A DNA stretch of 17,287 nt. Origin: a virus (taxonomy: Duplodnaviria > Heunggongvirae > Uroviricota > Caudoviricetes). A program made the position numbers and the translations under genes. Positions within the stretch are counted from its first letter, which is position 1. Each line of letters opens with the position of its first letter. The notes below the pieces were generated by a model. The model was not told the DNA's origin, ran no database searches, and was given only the letters and a program-made list of their open reading frames with translations. Where the stretch lies: positions 1 to 17,287 of the IMG/VR virus record IMGVR_UViG_2713896795_000005, one strand, 5' to 3'. This document shows, in pieces, positions 1 through 17,287 of the stretch.

Positions 1-31
1 AAAACTAGTATTAAGACTATCACTTATTTAA

Positions 32-3676
<3,645 letters not shown>

Positions 3677-3748: not shown

Positions 3749-3919
3749 ATGGCTATGGATATTATGTCAGGTGCAAACCTAAAAGTAGAAGTAGGTACAA
3801 GTGCTGGTAACACACTAGCGACCGACTTTAAAGAAGTTCCCGAAGTTGCTAGCTTTACTACTTCTGGCTTTGAATCAGTTGTTATAGACGTAAAAACTTT
3901 CAACTCTTCATATAACCGT
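3749..3919 (+). CDS. Exon 1 of intron-containing small tail protein (putative major tail/tube protein by position)
   Basis: ATG 3749 preceded by AAGGAA (3734-3739). Unspliced reading stops at TAA 3923-3925 after 58 codons. Homologous to the fibre N-terminal domain (EVASFTTSGFESVV vs [13 protein letters not shown]). Confidence 0.6.
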
Positions 3920-4189
3920 GGATAAAATAGCGGCCTATAGTAGCAATACTATTTGAATAACTCCTTTAATTGCTGGAAACTCTTATTATTAAGTTAAAGA
4001 CAATCAGCAGCGAAACCATATTATATGGAACGTTCAACGACTAGCCGAAAGGCGTAGGGATTAAGTAATCTCGAAATGGGGAGAATCCGAAATATCGGAT
4101 TGTGATATAGTCTAATCTGTATAGAAATATGCAGCAGTCATAAAGACCGATGACGATGTAGTATTAACGCCACTACATGAATAAAAATG
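3920..4189 (+). ncRNA. Group I self-splicing intron, ~270 nt, no homing endonuclease ORF
   Basis: Conserved core elements: P AATTGCTGGAAAC (3968-3980), Q AATCAGCAGCG (4002-4012), R GTTCAACGACTAG (4032-4044), S GATATAGTCTAA (4104-4115). P4 pairing TGCTG/CAGCA and P7 pairing GACTA/TAGTC. 5' exon ends in U3919 with a candidate guide GCGG (3930-3933) pairing CCGU. Intron ends ...AAAAATG (G4189), like the T4 td intron 3' end. In-frame stops sit at both intron ends (TAA 3923-3925, TGA 4178-4180). Confidence 0.75.
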
Positions 4190-4477
4190 AAATTGCTCGG
4201 CACAAAATCGATCCCTGATATTGAACTAAGTGTTAACTATCTTGCGGATAATACAGTACACCAACAATTAGAGACTCTCGCAGACGAGCAAAAACGCTGT
4301 CAGATTCGTCTAAGCTACTATACTGATGCAACCCACACTACTGGTTTTTATGTAGTTTATACTTGCTTCGTTAGTTCCACTACTATTGATGGCGACAAAG
4401 ATGAAGTAGTAACTAAAGCATTCAACCTAGCTGTAGACGGTGCAGCCGTTGAATCAGGTACACTACCTTCTATCTAA
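4190..4477 (+). CDS. Exon 2 of intron-containing small tail protein
   Basis: Same frame as exon 1; removing 3920-4189 (270 nt) joins ...SSYNR to KLLGTKSIPDIELSVNYL..., collinear and gap-free against the fibre N-domain (...SSGYSEKLLAEQDIGNIEVVVNYL...). Shared GDKD-x-VVTK motif near the C-terminus. Stop TAA 4475-4477. Confidence 0.6.
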   Translation, partial: KLLGTKSIPDIELSVNYLADNTVHQQLETLADEQKRCQIRLSYYTDATHTTGFYVVYTCFVSSTTIDGDKDEVVTKAFNLAVDGAAVESGTLPSI

Positions 4478-5240: not shown

Positions 5241-7425
5241 CGATAAAATTAGAGTAGAAATAGATGGCGATAGTACCGGACTGTCTAAATCACTACAGCA
5301 GGCAGAAAATAAAATTGATGCCTTTGGCAAGAAGGCTGGCGGTACTTTAGGTGGTATGGCATCGAGTACAGGTCAAGTATTCGATACTCTATCCCGTGGT
5401 GTATTGGGTGTTGCAGGTGTTGCTACTAGTGCTGGTATTGCGGTTGCAGCCTTTGCACTTAAAGTTAATGATGCAGTACGCGAACTAAACCAATTATCAA
5501 AACAGTCCGGTATGTCGGTATCACAACTACAGAAGCTACAGAAGGCATTCTATCAAACTGGTATTGGTGCCGAAGGTCTAGCAGATATCAACCAAGATAC
5601 CCTAGATAAAATGGGTGAGGGATATGCAGCAGGAACAGGTGAATTTGTTAACGTCATCAAAGAAATGGGCTTAAACGTAAATGACTTTACAAAGTACGTA
5701 GGTAAGGCTAATGGCGGGATCGAGTCCATGTCACAACTTTACTTTAAGTTGAAAGATGCTGGTAAGACACAAGCCGAAATCGCGTATGCAATGGAAGCAG
5801 TAGCAAGTAATGGATATCGATTAGCTGGCGTATTAGGTGACTTCAAAACACATGAAGATGCAATGATTCATATTCAGAAGCAATCAGTAGCAGTATCTGA
5901 TGAACAGGCTAAAGCATTCTCAAAATTTGATGATAATATTAATAAATTATCTACTAGTTTCCAAACCTTATCAGTAAAAGGTGCTACGCCATTAGTTGCA
6001 AAATTAAATGAACTACTAGACGTATTGAATAGTAATGATTTAGGTAGTAATACCTTTATGGATCAGTTGACAGGAAAAACTCTTGCAGCAAATAAAGCAT
6101 TATCTATTAATGAACAGTTAATGGGTAAGGTTTCGAAAGAATTAGTTCCAGGAAGATTAGCAGGTAATAAAGGTAATGAAGCGGACTTTATTGCAAAGAG
6201 TAAGCGAGATGGTGATATTGCATTTGCAAAATTAAATGCAAAGAAAGAATCTGTTAATAATCCACGTGGTGATAAGGCTTGGACTGAAATCGAAGATCCC
6301 GCAAAGATTAAACAGAAAGCCGAAGCAGCAGCGAAAGCAAGAAAGGCAGCAGAAGATAAGGCAGCTAACGAGCGTATTGCAGCACAAAAGGCATTAGATA
6401 AAATCTTAGTAGATCAAACTATCGGTACTAATGAGCGTCAATTAGCAGAGTTTGAACGCCAACAGAAAGAGATAGTAGAAACTATTAGGAAGAGTGCTAA
6501 AACATTAGGACTATCAGATGAGAAACTACGCCAGCTATTAAATGATCAAGTTACAGCAGGTGCAGCAAGTAGACTACAGATGATTAATCAAATGGTTGGT
6601 TATTCCAATCCAAATGAAACTACTAATCAGCAAAATAGTCTATTAGCTAGTGGACAAGTTGGGGCAGCAGGTCAAGCATTCTTAGGTAATCAGATTGATG
6701 AAACTTATGGAGTGGATAATACACAATATAAGCTAGACCAGATGAACGAAGAAAGAGAAGCAATCCTCCGCCAGAATGATTTACTAATTCAGGACAAGGA
6801 ATCATTTGAAAAACGTAAAGCAGCTATTACAGCACACTTCGCAGCGAAAGCAGTACAGATTCAGAACCAAGAAACAATGAAAACTCTCTCTATTTCTGCC
6901 GATGCAATGTCTCAAATGGGGGCAGGTATGGCGGCGGCTTTTGGTGAGTCATCCGGTGCGGCTCAGGCGTTCTATGCAGTACAACGCGGTCTAACTATCA
7001 GTATGACTATCATGAAGATTCAAGAGGCGTTAGCTAGTGCACTATCATTAGGTTTCCCACAAAACATTCCAGCTTATGCACAAATTGCAGGAATGGGTAT
7101 GTCTATCATCAGTACCGCCAAGGGTGCTAGTGCTGGTCAGTTCCACGGTGGCGTAGATGAAATACCCGCTAACTTGAATAATAAATCTTTTATTCTTAAA
7201 GAGGGTGAACGCGTAGTTCAACCAGAGGCCAATACTAAATTGACTCGTTTCCTAGATCGTCAGGAATCAGGTGGTGATAATACTTCTGGTGCTGGTGAAA
7301 TTGTTGTTAATGCCCCAATGTATGTTTACGGTGCAGATAATGATCAACAATTCCAGGAGAAACTAAAGAAACATAAAGACAGTATCGTACAGGCTGTACG
7401 TGATTCACAACGTCGTAACTCATAA
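5227..7425 (+). CDS. Tail tape measure protein
   Basis: 732 aa, Ala/Gln/Lys-rich with long predicted helical segments, directly downstream of the chaperone pair; SD AAGGAAG at 5213-5219. Confidence 0.85.
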   Translation: MAKNNDKIRVEIDGDSTGLSKSLQQAENKIDAFGKKAGGTLGGMASSTGQVFDTLSRGVLGVAGVATSAGIAVAAFALKVNDAVRELNQLSKQSGMSVSQLQKLQKAFYQTGIGAEGLADINQDTLDKMGEGYAAGTGEFVNVIKEMGLNVNDFTKYVGKANGGIESMSQLYFKLKDAGKTQAEIAYAMEAVASNGYRLAGVLGDFKTHEDAMIHIQKQSVAVSDEQAKAFSKFDDNINKLSTSFQTLSVKGATPLVAKLNELLDVLNSNDLGSNTFMDQLTGKTLAANKALSINEQLMGKVSKELVPGRLAGNKGNEADFIAKSKRDGDIAFAKLNAKKESVNNPRGDKAWTEIEDPAKIKQKAEAAAKARKAAEDKAANERIAAQKALDKILVDQTIGTNERQLAEFERQQKEIVETIRKSAKTLGLSDEKLRQLLNDQVTAGAASRLQMINQMVGYSNPNETTNQQNSLLASGQVGAAGQAFLGNQIDETYGVDNTQYKLDQMNEEREAILRQNDLLIQDKESFEKRKAAITAHFAAKAVQIQNQETMKTLSISADAMSQMGAGMAAAFGESSGAAQAFYAVQRGLTISMTIMKIQEALASALSLGFPQNIPAYAQIAGMGMSIISTAKGASAGQFHGGVDEIPANLNNKSFILKEGERVVQPEANTKLTRFLDRQESGGDNTSGAGEIVVNAPMYVYGADNDQQFQEKLKKHKDSIVQAVRDSQRRNS

Positions 7426-13536: not shown

Positions 13537-13863
13537 ATGGCAGGATGGGAAAATATAATTGCCGTCATAATAGCTTTGGGTGCTTTTATTTGGAATCTCA
13601 TTAGAGATAAATTCGCAGACTTTAAAACACTTGAATCACGACTGGCTAAAATAGAATCAGATTTAGCACATACTAAATCGGACGTAGAAAGGTTAGAAAA
13701 GGGTCAGGATGATTTAGAATCAGCACTCAATGATTTACGTTCTCAGATTCATTCAATGGATCTAAAAATAGAACGAGTGATAGCAATATTAGAAAAAAAT
13801 AAGGGGCTTATTGCCCCTTTTCTTTTTGCTATTTGTTTACTAATTGATAAATCATATCTTTAA
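13537..13863 (+). CDS. Membrane-anchored coiled-coil protein (lysis-associated candidate: i-spanin-like or holin-like)
   Basis: N-terminal TM segment (IIAVIIALGAFIWNLI) followed by a predicted heptad-rich helical region. The 3' end reads through the terminator hairpin and overlaps the convergent lysozyme gene by 35 nt. Paralogue of the frame-split ORF at 15968-16218. Confidence 0.55.
   Translation: MAGWENIIAVIIALGAFIWNLIRDKFADFKTLESRLAKIESDLAHTKSDVERLEKGQDDLESALNDLRSQIHSMDLKIERVIAILEKNKGLIAPFLFAICLLIDKSYL
13801..13828. terminator. Bidirectional rho-independent terminator shared by convergent genes
   Basis: AAGGGGC (13801-13807) / GCCCCTT (13813-13819) hairpin; + strand followed by TTTCTTTTT, - strand followed by ATTTTTTTC. 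Confidence 0.6.
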
Positions 13864-14281
13864 CGCGGTTAGGTGTCTGACGATACCATAGACTATCTTT
13901 AGCCTGAATAATCGCCCCCTTCCAATCCTTGCGGTGTAGTGCTGCAATCATCTTCTTGAACTTCTTAACACCACCTAAACCCAACTGAAAGGCCATAATA
14001 ACTAAGAAGTCTTGCCAGTCCTTCGGTAAGTCCAAGCCCAATGTTTTAACATCCTTGATAGTACGGTCAATATCCCATGCCAGTAGTAAATCTGCATCAA
14101 TGGCACTGATACCGTTTTTGTACTTTTCGATTTCATTAGGTAGGATCTTATGTCCGTAACCGATTGTAGCGTACCCTTCGGTATCCACATATGGGTAGAA
14201 CTTGTCTTGTCGATAGTATCCGCGTACTCGTTGGTATTCTTTAGTACCTTCATATAGTTTTAATCTTTCTTTAATGTCCAT
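13829..14281 (-). CDS. T4-type lysozyme (glycoside hydrolase family 24 endolysin)
   Basis: Close match to the T4 lysozyme pattern: E11 in LKLYEG, DTEGYATIGYGH (T4 DTEGYYTIGIGH), SLWYRQTPNRVKDM (T4 SRWYNQTPNRAKRV). No signal peptide. Confidence 0.85.
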   Translation of the reverse strand: MDIKERLKLYEGTKEYQRVRGYYRQDKFYPYVDTEGYATIGYGHKILPNEIEKYKNGISAIDADLLLAWDIDRTIKDVKTLGLDLPKDWQDFLVIMAFQLGLGGVKKFKKMIAALHRKDWKGAIIQAKDSLWYRQTPNRVKDMIYQLVNK

Positions 14282-14319: not shown

Positions 14320-14757
14320 ATGGTGTGGGATATGTTTGATCCAGAAGTCTGGAATATAAAAGATGTAGATTCTGGCAACTATGCCGCATTTGTTTACTTA
14401 ATTCAGTTTGATAATGGTAGTTGGTATATTGGTATGAAACAGATATATCAGGGCGTTAAAGATATTAAAAAATTAAAGTCCAGTACCAAACAATCGAACT
14501 GGAAGGACTACACATCAAGTAGTAGAACAGTAAATGCCTTAATTGACGCAGGGGAGGACTATAAAAAGTATGTTCTATGGTGTTTCCCTACTGCGAACCA
14601 AGCAAGCATAGTAGAAACGGCCTTAATCGCTACGAGTGGACTACTACCGCATAATCTGAATAAAGCCATACTTGCAAAGGCAAGACTACCAGCGAGCGAT
14701 ACAGACGCGTTAAAGCTATTTAAAATTGTAAAAGGACTAATAGGATCTCTAACATGA
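14320..14757 (+). CDS. Hypothetical protein, possible GIY-YIG nuclease-like fold
   Basis: FVYLIQFDNGSWYIG gives a V-Y-L ... (9 aa) ... Y-I-G spacing like GIY-YIG motifs; later IVETALI and PHNLN could supply the Glu and Asn. No clear catalytic Arg. AAGGA SD; stop overlaps the next start. Confidence 0.4.
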   Translation: MVWDMFDPEVWNIKDVDSGNYAAFVYLIQFDNGSWYIGMKQIYQGVKDIKKLKSSTKQSNWKDYTSSSRTVNALIDAGEDYKKYVLWCFPTANQASIVETALIATSGLLPHNLNKAILAKARLPASDTDALKLFKIVKGLIGSLT

Positions 14758-15332
14758 AAATCAATGCAAAAATAACTGGCCTATCCAGTGCAAAGGGCTA
14801 TCTAAATCAACAGGGAAAATTATATGGTAATCAATTCCAAGATGAACTAATCAAACGTACTCGCCAACTAGCTAAGGAAATGCAAGCAGATTTAAATGAT
14901 TCAATTGATAAAGGGGGCGTAGCCTTTACAAAGAATGCTGTACTGTACTTTTATAACAAGTCCGGTACTAGCGTAAAATGTACCATCATGATTAAAGATA
15001 TTCAGGCTGGGTATCTTTATGACGTGATAGTACATCCAGATCCACTAAAGAAATTTGTACCTACATCTGCGGCACGTCTGACTAAACAGGGGAACATACC
15101 CCAGCTTAAAAGTAATGTTGAAAAGGGTAAATATCGCGTAGTAGTTGAAAACGGGAAAAAGTACCTAATCGATACAACTAAGAAAGATACGAAGACAAAA
15201 ACTAAACGTGTAATTGGTGTACGTGAAACGAAGAAGAGGAAGCTAATTTATGACTTCTATGAAGAAGCAGAAAAGGGAGTAACTACAATTGTTAGCGGCA
15301 TGAAAGGACACTTTAAACTGAAGAAGGGGTAA
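14754..15332 (+). CDS. Hypothetical protein with lysine-rich basic C-terminal region
   Basis: 192-aa ORF, translationally coupled (ATGA overlap at 14754-14757). No family recognised. Confidence 0.5.
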   Translation: MKINAKITGLSSAKGYLNQQGKLYGNQFQDELIKRTRQLAKEMQADLNDSIDKGGVAFTKNAVLYFYNKSGTSVKCTIMIKDIQAGYLYDVIVHPDPLKKFVPTSAARLTKQGNIPQLKSNVEKGKYRVVVENGKKYLIDTTKKDTKTKTKRVIGVRETKKRKLIYDFYEEAEKGVTTIVSGMKGHFKLKKG

Positions 15333-15335
15333 CAA

Positions 15336-15656
15336 ATGAATTTAGAAGAACATCACTATGGGGAGGAAGTTAACGAGATTACATTAGATGGGGTAACACC
15401 ATTTGGTAATTCATATCAGTTCGAACTTTTTCAACTAGACAATAAGAAAATAAAAAAGAAAGTTAAAACTTTTGCACCTGATATTAAAACTTATATGAAT
15501 GTAGTTTTCTCCTATAAGCAATCACAGTGGACTGATGGGGATATACTAACATGGACGTATAAAAGTATACCCTTTGAAGTAGTGCTACTCGATTCACATT
15601 TTATCAGTGTTAAGGGTAAACATTTCTATCAATATGTAATAGGAGTAAAAAAATGA
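15336..15656 (+). CDS. Hypothetical protein
   Basis: 106-aa ORF starting 4 nt after the upstream stop. No family recognised. Confidence 0.5.
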   Translation: MNLEEHHYGEEVNEITLDGVTPFGNSYQFELFQLDNKKIKKKVKTFAPDIKTYMNVVFSYKQSQWTDGDILTWTYKSIPFEVVLLDSHFISVKGKHFYQYVIGVKK

Positions 15657-15946
15657 TTAGTATCTTAGTAGAACTATTAAAATCTGGTATGGATTTTTTC
15701 ATCAGGAAAAAAATAGTGGAAAAAGAAGTTCAGAAAACTAACGCCGAAGGACAAATAGAAGTAAACAAAGAAGAAATTGAAAGAGTATCATTTCACTGGC
15801 GTAACACACTTGGATTTGTGTTAACTATGATTGTGGCTTACAACTGGTTAATAGTACCGCTGCTAGATGCGTTTGGAATTGTAGTTATTCAAGTCCCATT
15901 AGGAGAATTGCTTACTATCCTACAAATCATGATTGGCGGAGTATAA
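15653..15946 (+). CDS. Small membrane protein (two C-terminal hydrophobic helices)
   Basis: 97-aa ORF overlapping the upstream stop (ATGA). Hydrophilic N-terminal half, then two hydrophobic segments (GFVLTMIVAYNWLIVPLL, IVVIQVPLGELLTILQIMIGGV). Confidence 0.5.
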   Translation: MISILVELLKSGMDFFIRKKIVEKEVQKTNAEGQIEVNKEEIERVSFHWRNTLGFVLTMIVAYNWLIVPLLDAFGIVVIQVPLGELLTILQIMIGGV

Positions 15947-15967
15947 AAACAAAATAAGGATAAAGTA

Positions 15968-16218
15968 ATGGACTACATCGCGTTAGGGGGGCTATTAATG
16001 GCTTTTTTACATTTATGGCTCGTCTACTCTATAGACGAAAACAAGAGATCTTAGAAGCTGAAAGACGTATAAGTGATATTGAAAGTATGCTTCTAGTATT
16101 AGAAACTAAAATAGAAAGTAATGAAGCAGATATTGATGAATTGTATGATTTAGTACGGGATTTATCAAAAATAAAAAGTGACACTTCAAAAATTAAAGGA
16201 ATATTAAAATCTAAATGA
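15968..16218 (+). pseudogene. Frame-disrupted paralogue of the 13537-13863 coiled-coil membrane protein
   Basis: A 28-codon ORF (15968-16054, MDYIALGGLLMAFLHLWLVYSIDENKRS, AAGGA SD) carries the TM helix. The coiled-coil part is in the -1 frame (ORF 16015-16218). One extra A in the A4 run at 16038-16041 would give a single ORF collinear with the paralogue. Confidence 0.5.
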
Positions 16219-16219
16219 A

Positions 16220-16246
16220 GCCCCTTATGGGGCGTTCACTTTTATT
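16220..16246. terminator. Palindromic GC hairpin with flanking T-rich tracts
   Basis: GCCCC (16220-16224), loop TTAT, GGGGC (16229-16233), then GTTCACTTTTATT on the + strand. The - strand side is also T-rich, so it may serve the convergent - strand genes too. Confidence 0.5.
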
Positions 16247-16318: not shown

Positions 16319-16564
16319 TTATTCACATTTCCATATGGTATTTTGTACACCCGTACCGGCGGGTAGATGTGGGTTAACATTAGCACTATGTGTATAGGTT
16401 GCTTTTGATTTTCCATATTGCTTACATGCGGCATCTGCTGTCTTCTGTAAGCTATCTAACCCGTACCATCCGTCTGATTGGATACTGACTGTTTTACCAT
16501 CGTTGTACTGAACCATTGCACAACCAGATACAAGGATTGACATTGCAAATACTATTTTTTTCAT
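16319..16564 (-). CDS. Small lipoprotein, probably outer-membrane (candidate Cor/Llp-type exclusion lipoprotein)
   Basis: Signal peptide MKKIVFAMSILVSG-C with lipobox V-S-G-C and Ala at +2; mature part ~66 aa with two further Cys, one next to the C-terminus. AAAGGG SD upstream on the - strand. Confidence 0.65.
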   Translation of the reverse strand: MKKIVFAMSILVSGCAMVQYNDGKTVSIQSDGWYGLDSLQKTADAACKQYGKSKATYTHSANVNPHLPAGTGVQNTIWKCE

Positions 16565-16606: not shown

Positions 16607-17287
16607 TTATTTTCTTTCATAACAAAATACATCTTCAAATCTTATCTCTAAATTATTATAAATTTCTATAGCATTTTTATAATTGATGTTTATTTGTTCG
16701 TTGTTTTTTTGCCAACAAAAGTATCTATTAAAATAGGTCATGTCAATTGCAGACTTAATGAAATCTTGAATGCTCTCTCTGGTATTATCTGCGGCTGTGA
16801 TGTAATTAATATACTCTATTTCTGCCTTGCAGTGCATATCCCACGAACCTAACGTTTTTATCTCCACTAATAATTGTGCGACCTCAATATTTAAAGATCT
16901 GCTAAGATCTAATAATTCATTGGCTATATTTTTCATTTTTGTATTTTCAGTTGGAGATAATTCTTTGCACTGTGAGTATTCATCGCAGAAGTTATCATAT
17001 CCACTTTTAAGTGAATGAAGTTTTATAAATGATTGAGTCATGTTCATTAGTATTTTTTCTGCATGTTCAAAACCTTTATTTTTGACTCTATCTTTCAACC
17101 AGTTACGAACACTTAAGGCTGCATATATTGCAGACCCAGCAACTACAGTATCCATAATGGCAGAAACAGTACTGCTTGTAAATTCATGTAAAAATAATAC
17201 ATCTAAGTAGATTGCTGTCAATACACCAAGACTGAAGTACATAATATGTGAAAATTCTATTTTATCAACTAAGACTCTAATATTCAT
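16607..17287 (-). CDS. Membrane protein with two N-terminal TM helices and a ~160-aa soluble domain, unknown function
   Basis: 226-aa ORF whose ATG sits on the last three bases of the window, so the true start may lie beyond it. Hydrophobic segments MYFSLGVLTAIYLDVLFL and AIMDTVVAGSAIYAALSV. Roughly 20-30% GC by spot counts of two 60-nt lines, versus ~30-50% in two tail-gene lines. Confidence 0.55.
   Translation of the reverse strand: MNIRVLVDKIEFSHIMYFSLGVLTAIYLDVLFLHEFTSSTVSAIMDTVVAGSAIYAALSVRNWLKDRVKNKGFEHAEKILMNMTQSFIKLHSLKSGYDNFCDEYSQCKELSPTENTKMKNIANELLDLSRSLNIEVAQLLVEIKTLGSWDMHCKAEIEYINYITAADNTRESIQDFIKSAIDMTYFNRYFCWQKNNEQININYKNAIEIYNNLEIRFEDVFCYERK

What the first reader, a model, noticed from the sequence alone, without database searches (positions are those of the whole stretch)
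15968..16218. Second TM-coiled-coil paralogue is split across two frames at an A4 run
The TM helix is encoded by a 28-codon ORF with a good SD, and the coiled-coil part by the -1 frame ORF 16015-16218, which has no SD. One extra A in the run at 16038-16041 would fuse them into a ~84-aa protein (...YSIDEKQEILEAERRISDIESML...) collinear with the 13537 paralogue (...IRDKFADFKTLESRLAKIESDL...). Both family members thus have frame-critical A-tracts, suggesting either homopolymer-mediated switching or recent pseudogenisation of a duplicated lysis or membrane gene.
Basis: seen in the sequence. Interest (0 to 1): 0.55.

Follow-up and report, generated by a model that had tools for sequence, protein, structure and literature searches.

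The report
Frameshifted prophage membrane-helix gene remnant

Summary
The two overlapping ORFs are real (15968-16054, 28 aa; 16015-16218, 67 aa), and together they are the remains of one 83-aa gene. The break is not at the A4 run. Intact 83-aa orthologues in Citrobacter prophages and IMG/VR contigs read ...MAFFTFMGRLLYRRKQEILEAE... with the same CGAAAACAAGAG, so A4 is the native in-frame sequence (RRKQE). The lesion is a 1-nt deletion at GCC-TTTTTT (window T6, 16003-16008).

The same T6 allele occurs in five assemblies from independent projects, so it is not a sequencing error. A sister allele has lost two bases (T5) and sits in a different frame. Intact alleles are under strong purifying selection (dN/dS 0-0.25; 12 synonymous versus 0 nonsynonymous in one pair). 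The two broken alleles differ by 1 synonymous and 9 nonsynonymous changes, which indicates relaxed constraint.

Most related E. coli prophages lack this gene entirely. The first paralogue (13537) is a distant family member (hhalign 96%) with a real A7/A8 polymorphism (108 versus 88 aa).

Verdict: pseudogene. Homopolymer switching and programmed frameshifting are not supported. Relatives of the family sit directly upstream of the endolysin gene. That placement suggests a lysis accessory or holin-like role, but the function is untested.

The parts
15956..15960 (+). Shine-Dalgarno (AAGGA) of the ancestral 83-aa gene, 7 nt before the ATG
   Evidence: Read directly from the sequence. The same upstream region is present in intact orthologues.
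15968..16002 (+). Native 5' coding part (M1-M11 plus the first two bases of Ala12) of the ancestral gene, still in its original frame
   Evidence: DNA alignment with intact Citrobacter genes.
16003..16008 (+). T6 run, the site of the inactivating 1-nt deletion. Intact genes have GCC TTT TTT and the sister allele L007 has T5. In frame 0 the deletion creates T_TTT_TTA (16003-16009).
   Evidence: Alignment A1, allele table, and identical sequence in L002-L006.
15968..16054 (+). Present-day 28-aa ORF. Its first 12-13 codons are native and the rest (LHLWLVYSIDENKRS) is out-of-frame read-through.
16009..16218 (+). Native frame for residues T15-K83 plus the TGA stop. Gene callers report only 16015-16218 (67 aa), starting at an internal Met that is Ile in several intact alleles.
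16038..16041 (+). It is the native in-frame sequence (CGA AAA CAA = R K Q), invariant in all intact and broken alleles, and is not the lesion.
16220..16233 (.). GC-rich hairpin (GCCCCTTATGGGGC) directly after the stop codon. It is a terminator-like end of the + strand late/lysis genes and is conserved in orthologues.
13537..13863 (+). First paralogue (P1). It is 108 aa here because of the A7 run at 13793-13799. The A8 form ends after 88 aa at a TAA immediately before the bidirectional terminator (13801-13819) shared with the convergent lysozyme gene.
   Evidence: The Pfam DUF2730 score is 23.9-24.3 bits, just under the 24.9 cut-off.
13829..14281 (-). Phage lysozyme (endolysin) with no N-terminal hydrophobic or SAR segment
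   Evidence: Pfam PF00959, E 4.8e-9; PHROGs.
15653..15946 (+). 97-aa holin-like membrane protein immediately upstream of the broken gene
   Evidence: Sub-threshold matches to GTA_holin_3TM (22.6 bits against a cut-off of 24.8) and to PHROG holin phrog_3427 (E 1e-3).

Best explanation
The two ORFs are the halves of a pseudogene. The ancestral gene encoded an 83-aa protein that is one continuous helix: a short N-terminal membrane anchor (about residues 3-22), an RRK motif, then a roughly 60-residue charged helix. It is the last + strand gene of the late/lysis region of a siphovirus-type prophage integrated next to mdtG in E. coli.

In the E. coli lineage one base was lost at the GC(C/T)-TTTTTT tract (window 16003-16008), and a second base was lost in a sister allele. 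Translation from the good SD now ends after 28 codons. The remaining 67 codons have no ribosome-binding site of their own.

Shown:
- the position of the lesion
- its presence in independent assemblies
- a second, different lesion at the same tract
- purifying selection on intact alleles and neutral drift of the broken ones
- complete absence of the gene from most related E. coli prophages

Inferred: the intact protein is an accessory or holin-like component of the lysis cassette. The inference rests on family members that sit directly upstream of the endolysin gene. The gene appears to have become dispensable in prophages that also carry the first paralogue (13537).
For: 1. Intact 83-aa orthologues exist (P0002 in 97 contigs, P0009 in 121 contigs, mostly Citrobacter freundii). 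They read MDYIAIGGLLMAFFTFMGRLLYRRKQEILEAE..., which places the junction at the T-run.
2. The T6 sequence is identical in the NCBI assembly GCA_001077955.1 and in Logan assemblies of DRR771913, SRR21291477, SRR27902277 and ERR11558579. These differ from the window at 8-13 nearby sites.
3. Allele P0014 (L007, found in 3 contigs) has T5, a 2-nt loss that puts it in a different frame.
4. Nei-Gojobori counts: intact pairs give dN/dS 0-0.25, for example L008 versus L011 with 12 synonymous and 0 nonsynonymous changes. Window versus L007 gives 1 synonymous and 9 nonsynonymous, including L10S and F16S in the membrane segment. Fisher p = 2e-5. The probability of at least 9 of 10 changes being nonsynonymous at omega 0.2 is 0.003, and at omega 1 it is 0.35.
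5. Eleven related E. coli prophages (L019, L022-L031) have no trace of the gene, and L001 also lacks it.
6. Met17, the start of the 67-aa ORF, is Ile in several intact alleles, and no SD precedes it.
7. AlphaFold2 models the intact orthologue as a single helix over residues 2-82 with mean pLDDT 94.9.
8. Remote family members P0025 and P0031 lie immediately upstream of, and co-oriented with, the lysozyme gene. In L033 the stop and start are adjacent at 4261/4262.
Against: - The downstream 67 codons are still open in all three broken haplotypes. Only 10 substitutions separate the two broken alleles, so the selection test has limited power and rests on one pair.
- The deletion happens to create a textbook -1 slippery heptamer (T_TTT_TTA) in the correct frame, 11 nt downstream of a G6 run. 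Some full-length protein could therefore still be made.
- No expression data or sequencing reads were available.
- The proposed lysis role of the intact protein rests only on gene position and architecture. No family hit reaches a curated threshold.
Confidence: 0.8

Rival explanations
1. Compensatory or programmed -1 ribosomal frameshifting. Ribosomes slip on T_TTT_TTA (16003-16009), helped by the SD-like G6 run 11 nt upstream. They would make an 83-aa protein (MAF-L/F-TFMARLLYRRKQ...) from the split gene.
For: The heptamer is a perfect X_XXY_YYZ site in the zero frame and is identical to the HIV-1 site (via PMC4373837). The G6 run at 15986-15991 has dnaX-like spacing (read from the sequence; dnaX spacing from my own knowledge). 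The downstream frame is open in every broken allele.
Against: - The heptamer is a by-product of the deletion. Intact relatives encode the same protein in one frame, and their tract is often interrupted.
- The sister allele L007 (T5) would need a +1/-2 shift instead.
- There is no stimulatory structure downstream: MFE -10.5 kcal/mol, z = +0.87, and 160 of 200 shuffles fold as well.
- In E. coli, U_UUU_UUA is much less shift-prone than A_AAA_AAG (PMC5009743).
- Substitutions in the broken clade look neutral.
- The G-run encodes the conserved Gly-Gly and is also present in intact alleles.
Confidence: 0.07
2. Phase variation. The homopolymer tract switches length by replication slippage, turning the gene on and off.
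For: Three tract states are seen in nature: C+T6 intact, T6 and T5. The other paralogue shows an A7/A8 polymorphism, and both states occur in several independent assemblies.
Against: - The tracts are short (5-7 nt).
- No in-frame allele of the E. coli clade was found in the protein collection or by pattern scans.
- T6 is fixed across two haplotypes and five assemblies.
- The tract is not conserved as a homopolymer in intact alleles.
- In the 13537 paralogue, A7 is always linked to a second change (T5 instead of T4 after the hairpin), which indicates an inherited haplotype.
- The broken clade evolves neutrally.
Confidence: 0.05
3. The fragments have their own functions. The 67-aa soluble helix would be made from the internal ATG 16015, and/or the 28-aa membrane peptide would act as a new small protein.
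For: Both ORFs are open, the 28-aa ORF keeps the good SD, and gene callers annotate the 67-aa ORF as a hypothetical protein.
Against: No SD precedes 16015. Met17 is not conserved and is Ile in many intact alleles. Within the 67 codons the two broken alleles differ by 4 nonsynonymous and 0 synonymous changes. In L007 the upstream peptide has a different out-of-frame tail.
Confidence: 0.05
4. A sequencing or assembly error in a homopolymer, so the real gene is intact.
For: The lesion lies in a homopolymer, and a second homopolymer difference (A7 versus A8) occurs 2.2 kb away in the same assembly.
Against: The same T6 occurs in five assemblies from different sequencing projects, and a T5 allele occurs in three more contigs. 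The long ORFs of the window (1214, 732 and 1070 aa) are uninterrupted. The A7 form is also present in at least 7 other contigs.
Confidence: 0.02

Closest known systems
Intact 83-aa orthologues in Citrobacter freundii/portucalensis prophages (e.g. P0002, P0009; annotated 'hypothetical protein')
   Same: After repair at the T-run the identity is 78-88% over all 83 residues. The genomic slot is the same: after the 97-aa holin-like gene, followed by the same hairpin, a lipoprotein gene and a 226-aa membrane protein gene on the other strand.
   Different: The window copy has lost one base and is split into two frames. The orthologues are under purifying selection and the window clade is not.
Phage Mu gp25 'releasin' / Pfam DUF2730 (PF10805)
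   Same: Both are small proteins of about 80-100 aa with an N-terminal TMD, very few residues before it, an RR/RK motif at the membrane-cytoplasm junction, a helical charged C-terminal domain, and a gene in the lysis region (PMC9239132; sequence). NCBI names the L001 relative a 'DUF2730 family protein'.
   Different: - Pfam scores are below threshold: second paralogue at most 13.9 bits, first paralogue 24.3 bits, cut-off 24.9.
- hhalign against Mu gp25 gives 1.7% for the second-paralogue family and 26% for the first-paralogue family.
- The endolysin here has no SAR domain.
- The prophage is not Mu-like.
- The C-terminal domain is near neutral (13 K/R versus 14-15 D/E), not strongly acidic.
Single-TMD small lysis proteins of Gram-positive phages (BhlA holin family PF10960, XhlA PF10779)
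   Same: All are short proteins with one TMD plus a coiled-coil segment, encoded next to the endolysin. There are weak sub-threshold hits (XhlA E 0.006-0.3; BhlA E 0.012 for the L001 relative).
   Different: The scores are far below the cut-offs and are probably driven by coiled-coil composition. XhlA has its TMD at the C-terminus (from my own knowledge).
Frameshift-compensation cases such as the herpesvirus thymidine kinase G-run 'savior' indel, and dnaX/HIV-type -1 slippery sites
   Same: There is an indel in a homopolymer, and the resulting sequence is a canonical slippery heptamer (PMC5009743).
   Different: There is no evidence of conservation, a stimulatory element, or selection on the product.

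Membership tests
83-aa TM-helix protein family of Citrobacter/Escherichia prophages (the second paralogue's type, here called P2) | Full-length collinear sequence similarity | tested here: met
   The sequence repaired at the T-run is 78-88% identical over 83 of 83 residues. The HMM of the intact family scores its nearest representative (P0005) at E 1.9e-49.
83-aa TM-helix protein family of Citrobacter/Escherichia prophages (the second paralogue's type, here called P2) | One uninterrupted reading frame | tested here: not met
   There is a 1-nt deletion at 16003-16008, leaving ORFs of 28 and 67 aa. The window copy is therefore a pseudogene of the family.
83-aa TM-helix protein family of Citrobacter/Escherichia prophages (the second paralogue's type, here called P2) | Conserved genomic position at the end of the late/lysis region | tested here: met
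   The neighbours are the same in L008-L011 and L013-L017.
DUF2730 / Mu gp25 releasin | Match to Pfam PF10805 above the gathering score | tested here: not met
   The repaired window protein gives no hit at E<=1. Orthologues score 13.7-13.9 bits (E 0.06) against a cut-off of 24.9. The first paralogue scores 23.9-24.3 bits, just below.
DUF2730 / Mu gp25 releasin | Detectable homology to Mu gp25 itself | tested here: not met
   hhalign probability is 1.7% for the second paralogue's family and 26% for the first paralogue's family.
DUF2730 / Mu gp25 releasin | N-terminal TMD with N-out/C-in topology and an RR/RK motif at the cytoplasmic junction | tested here: met
   The sequence reads MDY-[hydrophobic 3-22]-RRK. 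The topology is inferred from the positive-inside rule only.
DUF2730 / Mu gp25 releasin | Pairing with a SAR endolysin whose release it promotes | tested here: not met
   The lysozyme starts MDIKERLKLYEGTKEYQ and has no N-terminal hydrophobic segment. The Mu paper notes that many DUF2730 genes also accompany cytoplasmic endolysins, where their function is unknown.
DUF2730 / Mu gp25 releasin | Carried by a transposable (Mu-like) phage | tested here: inconclusive
   Only the tail and lysis end of the prophage is in the window. The element sits at the same chromosomal site (next to mdtG) in several E. coli genomes, which argues against random transposition.
Programmed -1 ribosomal frameshift site | Slippery X_XXY_YYZ heptamer in the zero frame | tested here: met
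   T_TTT_TTA at 16003-16009.
Programmed -1 ribosomal frameshift site | Conservation of the two-frame arrangement among relatives | tested here: not met
   All other relatives are single-frame, and L007 is shifted by two bases.
Programmed -1 ribosomal frameshift site | Downstream stimulatory RNA structure | tested here: not met
   The fold of 16003-16090 is no more stable than shuffled sequences (z = +0.87).
Phase-variable (contingency) homopolymer locus | Both in-frame and out-of-frame tract lengths within one lineage | tested here: not met
   Only T6 and T5 are found in the E. coli clade, and no in-frame allele was found.
Phase-variable (contingency) homopolymer locus | Within-isolate tract heterogeneity | not testable with these tools
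   Raw reads cannot be inspected here.
Two-component spanin, inner-membrane subunit (Rz-like) | N-in/C-out topology with a periplasmic coiled coil, plus a partner lipoprotein gene embedded in or adjacent to it on the same strand | tested here: not met
   There are only weak PHROG phrog_739 hits (E 1e-4 to 7e-3). The RRK motif after the TMD predicts a cytoplasmic C-terminus. No same-strand lipobox ORF overlaps or follows the gene, and the nearby lipoprotein gene is on the opposite strand.

The most novel reading that the evidence does not exclude
The deletion-created U_UUU_UUA heptamer, 11 nt downstream of an SD-like G6 run, might support low-level compensatory -1 frameshifting. In that case the 'pseudogene' would still deliver a trickle of full-length membrane protein, a down-tuned rather than dead lysis accessory gene. 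More broadly, this family of 76-92-aa proteins may be an uncharacterised single-TMD lysis component for cytoplasmic endolysins, because it occupies the slot directly upstream of the endolysin gene in a whole group of enterobacterial prophages.
Probability: 0.06. Interest if true: 0.4.

Novelty: new member of a known kind. Interest (0 to 1): 0.15.

Why it matters
The practical value is for annotation. The 67-aa 'hypothetical protein' in public records is the tail of a frameshifted gene, and the correct repair site is the T-run rather than the A-run.

The case also shows that an apparent frame-critical homopolymer can be the native sequence, and that only orthologues reveal where a frame was actually lost.

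The wider family is uncharacterised. It consists of small proteins with one TMD and a long helix, sitting beside the endolysin in many enterobacterial prophages. It could be worth testing as a holin-like or releasin-like lysis factor, but the window copy itself is a dead gene.

Tried and rejected
- Megablast of the region against the phage and plasmid collections found nothing. The search of complete E. coli genomes gave one partial hit, to the holin-like gene only. The gene is rare.
- The scan of GTDB species representatives with the family alignment found no relative.
- Exact-pattern scans for the E. coli-clade allele with any tract length found nothing in JGI metagenomes or GTDB genomes. 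No in-frame allele could be recovered, and no census beyond the look-ups was possible.
- Pfam, PHROGs and NCBIfam gave only sub-threshold hits that look driven by coiled-coil composition (MTR4 stalk, ABC_tran_CTD, FtsL, Rz-like spanin, SMC/Rad50). I rejected these as family assignments.
- The DUF2730/releasin assignment for the second paralogue was rejected after direct comparison with Mu gp25.
- An i-spanin reading was rejected on predicted topology and the lack of a partner gene.
- An attempt to decide whether IS2 truncates the tail-fibre gene, by searching E. coli genomes, was uninformative.
- No fold search was run, because a single long helix gives meaningless structural matches.

Full report
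**What is in the sequence.**
The window is the tail and lysis end of a siphovirus-type prophage. From position 6015 onward it is identical to E. coli assembly GCA_001077955.1, contig LFKC01000010.1.

Gene order on the + strand:
- tail genes: an S74-chaperone tail fibre, a distal tail protein, DUF6950 and a tail tip protein
- a small TM-helix gene at 13537-13863, here called P1
- a convergent lysozyme gene at 13829-14281 on the - strand
- a SegE-like GIY-YIG endonuclease
- two unknown genes
- a 97-aa holin-like gene at 15653-15946
- the region in question, followed by a hairpin at 16220-16233

A lipoprotein gene and a membrane-protein gene then follow on the other strand. In the source contig the chromosomal gene mdtG comes next.

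ORF 15968-16054 (28 aa) has an AAGGA SD. ORF 16015-16218 (67 aa) lies in the -1 frame without an SD. The A4 run is at 16038-16041.

**Where the frame was actually lost.**
P0002 occurs in 97 contigs and P0009 in 121 contigs. They read MDYIAIGGLLMAFFTFMGRLLYRRKQEILEAERRISDIES....

The DNA alignment and the allele table show three things:
- The stretch AGA CGA AAA CAA GAG, which contains the A4 run, is invariant in every intact and broken allele.
- Intact genes read ATG GCC TTT TTT ACA, with variants GGA TTC TTT, GCC TTT TGT, GGA TTC TTA and GGA TTT TTT.
- The window reads ATG GC- TTT TTT ACA, a one-base loss that leaves T6 at 16003-16008.

Repair at that site gives an 83-aa protein that is 78-88% identical to the intact proteins.

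**It is not an assembly error, and it is not alone.**
The exact 67-aa product is encoded on contigs from five data sets: the NCBI assembly and Logan assemblies of DRR771913, SRR21291477, SRR27902277 and ERR11558579. All carry the same T6/A4 sequence. The four Logan contigs share a haplotype that differs from the window at 8-13 nearby positions.

A diverged sister allele (P0014, L007, three contigs) has T5. That is a two-base loss and a different frame. No in-frame protein of this allele clade was found in the 5.8-billion-protein collection. Pattern scans allowing any tract length found nothing further.

**Selection.**
Nei-Gojobori counts on the repaired codon alignment give dN/dS of 0.00-0.25 among intact alleles. 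L008 versus L011 has 12 synonymous and 0 nonsynonymous changes. L014 versus L018 has 25.8 and 10.2.

The two broken alleles differ by 1 synonymous and 9 nonsynonymous changes, including L10S and F16S inside the membrane segment.
- Fisher's exact test for this contrast gives p = 2e-5.
- Nine or more nonsynonymous changes out of ten has probability 0.003 at omega 0.2.
- The same outcome has probability 0.35 at omega 1.

The broken clade therefore evolves as if unconstrained. The sample is a single pair with ten changes.

**Distribution.**
A tblastn of both paralogues against all fetched loci, together with the gene tables, gives three patterns:
- Citrobacter and IMG/VR prophages L008-L011, L013, L015 and L016 have the intact second paralogue (P2) and no P1.
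- L014 and L017 have both paralogues intact.
- Eleven E. coli prophages (L019, L022-L031) have P1 and no trace of P2. L001 also lacks P2.

The gene is therefore dispensable in the E. coli lineage, where it is either deleted or frameshifted.

**The rivals.**
In the zero frame the deletion creates T_TTT_TTA (16003-16009). This is the HIV-1-type -1 slippery heptamer (PMC4373837), and it lies 11 nt after a G6 run. A -1 slip there would rebuild the 83-aa protein.

I rate this at about 7%, for these reasons:
- The arrangement is not conserved. Relatives are single-frame, and L007 would need a different shift.
- The G-run is simply the conserved Gly-Gly codons.
- The downstream RNA folds no better than shuffled sequence (z = +0.87).
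- U_UUU_UUA is a poor shifter in E. coli compared with A_AAA_AAG (PMC5009743).
- The selection signal is neutral.

Phase variation is unlikely. The tracts are only 5-7 nt, no ON allele exists in the clade, and the tract is not kept as a homopolymer in intact alleles. An independent function for the 67-aa ORF is unlikely because it has no SD, its start Met is Ile in many intact alleles, and its four differences between the broken alleles are all nonsynonymous.

**The first paralogue.**
P1 (13537-13863) is 108 aa in the window because of an A7 run at 13793-13799. With A8 the ORF ends at TAA after 88 aa, immediately before the hairpin at 13801-13819.

That hairpin scores as a terminator on both strands. 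The A-run is the U-tract for the convergent lysozyme transcript.

The 88-aa form is the common one. P0021 occurs in 80 contigs, and P0020, L003, L004 and L022-L031 also carry it. The 108-aa form is also real in nature: the near-identical protein P0019, which differs from the window's copy at one residue (F26S), occurs in at least 7 contigs from other projects. The window's exact 108-aa sequence was found only in its own source assembly. The A7 form is always linked to a second change, T5 instead of T4 after the hairpin, so it looks like an inherited haplotype.

Whether the 20-residue hydrophobic extension harms P1 is unknown.

**Are the two genes paralogues, and what family is this?**
Pairwise BLASTP between them is weak (E 0.005). 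Profile-profile comparison of the two small families gives 96% probability and E 2.5e-9, collinear over 75 columns including the membrane segment, at 19% identity. Compositional bias of TM plus coiled-coil segments may inflate this.

A HMMER search of the intact P2 profile against 1.84 billion representatives found only ten proteins at E <= 1e-3. Most of them are 76-92-aa proteins with the same layout.

Two of these (P0025, P0031) occupy the P1 slot in related prophages. They lie immediately upstream of the lysozyme gene, co-oriented with it, and in L033 the stop and start are adjacent. Another (P0029) is close to the protein in L001 that NCBI annotates as a 'DUF2730 family protein'.

P1 and P2 thus belong to one small, old family tied to the lysis cassette. 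They are not a recent duplicate.

AlphaFold2 models the intact orthologue as one helix over residues 2-82, with mean pLDDT 94.9.

**Comparison with known systems.**
The architecture matches what Chamblee et al. describe for Mu gp25 and DUF2730 (PMC9239132):
- an N-terminal TMD with almost nothing before it
- an RR/RK motif at the junction
- a helical cytoplasmic domain
- a gene near the endolysin

Membership is not shown. Pfam scores are at most 13.9 bits for P2-type proteins and 24.3 bits for P1, against a cut-off of 24.9. hhalign against Mu gp25 gives 1.7% for the P2 family and 26% for the P1 family. The endolysin here has no SAR segment. The C-terminal domain is near neutral.

Hits to Rz-like spanin, XhlA and BhlA are weak and probably compositional. 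The slot directly upstream of the endolysin is the classical holin position. My best guess for the intact family is therefore a holin-like or holin/endolysin accessory membrane protein. This is inference from position and architecture only.

**Verdict.**
The split is real. The proposed site is wrong. The feature is a frameshift pseudogene of a rare, uncharacterised small lysis-region gene. Interest is low.

**Seen in passing.**
Rfam finds a full-length group I intron at 3910-4134 (81.9 bits). It interrupts the major tail (tube) protein gene. Exon 1 (3749-3919) and exon 2 (4190-4477) join to match the uninterrupted homologue of L001 across ...FNS(S/A)YNR|KLLGTKS.... The joined product also aligns continuously with the tube-like N-terminus of the fibre ORF (E 7e-17).

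Noticed in passing
window 3749-4477 (intron core 3910-4134): A full-length group I catalytic intron (Rfam RF00028, 81.9 bits, E 7.5e-20) interrupts the major tail (tube) protein gene. Exon 1 is 3749-3919 and ends in U. The intron spans about 3920-4189, ends in G and has no internal ORF. Exon 2 is 4190-4477. The joined exons match the uninterrupted 'phage tail protein' of L001 (4415-4858) across the junction. Gene callers see only a 96-aa ORF. The intron also explains the odd 60-nt hits to Bacillus SPO1-like phages. A group I intron in a structural gene of an E. coli prophage seems unusual and may deserve its own look.
   Followed up: partly
window 13793-13799 (and 13801-13819): There is an A7/A8 length polymorphism at the 3' end of the first paralogue. 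A7 gives a 108-aa protein with a hydrophobic 20-residue extension that runs through the terminator and 35 nt into the convergent lysozyme gene. A8 gives the common 88-aa form. The A-run also serves as the U-tract of the bidirectional terminator on the minus strand. A7 is always linked to T5 (instead of T4) after the hairpin.
   Followed up: yes
window 1-76: The left edge of the window, which is also the contig end, is an IS2 terminus (94-100% identity to IS2 ends in phage records). It abuts the 1214-aa tail-fibre ORF. The N-terminal roughly 145 residues of that ORF are homologous to the tail tube protein (E 7e-17). IS2 may have cut off the first codons of the fibre gene.
   Followed up: partly
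L033:4001-4714, L036:4001-4790 versus window 13537-14281: In more distant relatives the small TM-helix gene and the lysozyme gene are co-oriented and abutting, like a holin-endolysin pair. In the E. coli and Citrobacter prophages the lysozyme gene is inverted, so the two genes converge on a shared hairpin.
   Followed up: partly
window 14320-14757: A SegE-like GIY-YIG homing-endonuclease gene (Pfam E 1.6e-17) sits next to the lysozyme gene in every relative examined. In L001 it is split into two ORFs. Whether it is connected to the intron 10 kb away is unknown.
   Followed up: no
L001:14619-15417: The related E. coli SI-NP020 prophage carries two tandem holin-like genes. The second (15004-15120 plus 15169-...) is itself frameshifted and unannotated. 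This is another sign of decay at this end of the prophage.
   Followed up: no
L008:5065-5987; L009:3064-4095: Citrobacter prophages have two extra overlapping ORFs (103 aa and 219-241 aa, no Pfam hits) between the holin-like gene and the 83-aa gene. These ORFs are absent from the window. In L009 a DDE transposase is inserted in the 186-aa gene.
   Followed up: no
window 16319-16564 (-) and 16607-17287 (-): At the prophage end there is an 81-aa lipoprotein gene (lipobox LVSGC; PHROG phrog_7757, E 2.5e-45, unknown function) and a 226-aa membrane protein gene on the opposite strand. They look like a moron-like cargo pair. The pair is conserved in Citrobacter relatives and replaced by other genes in many E. 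coli relatives.
   Followed up: no
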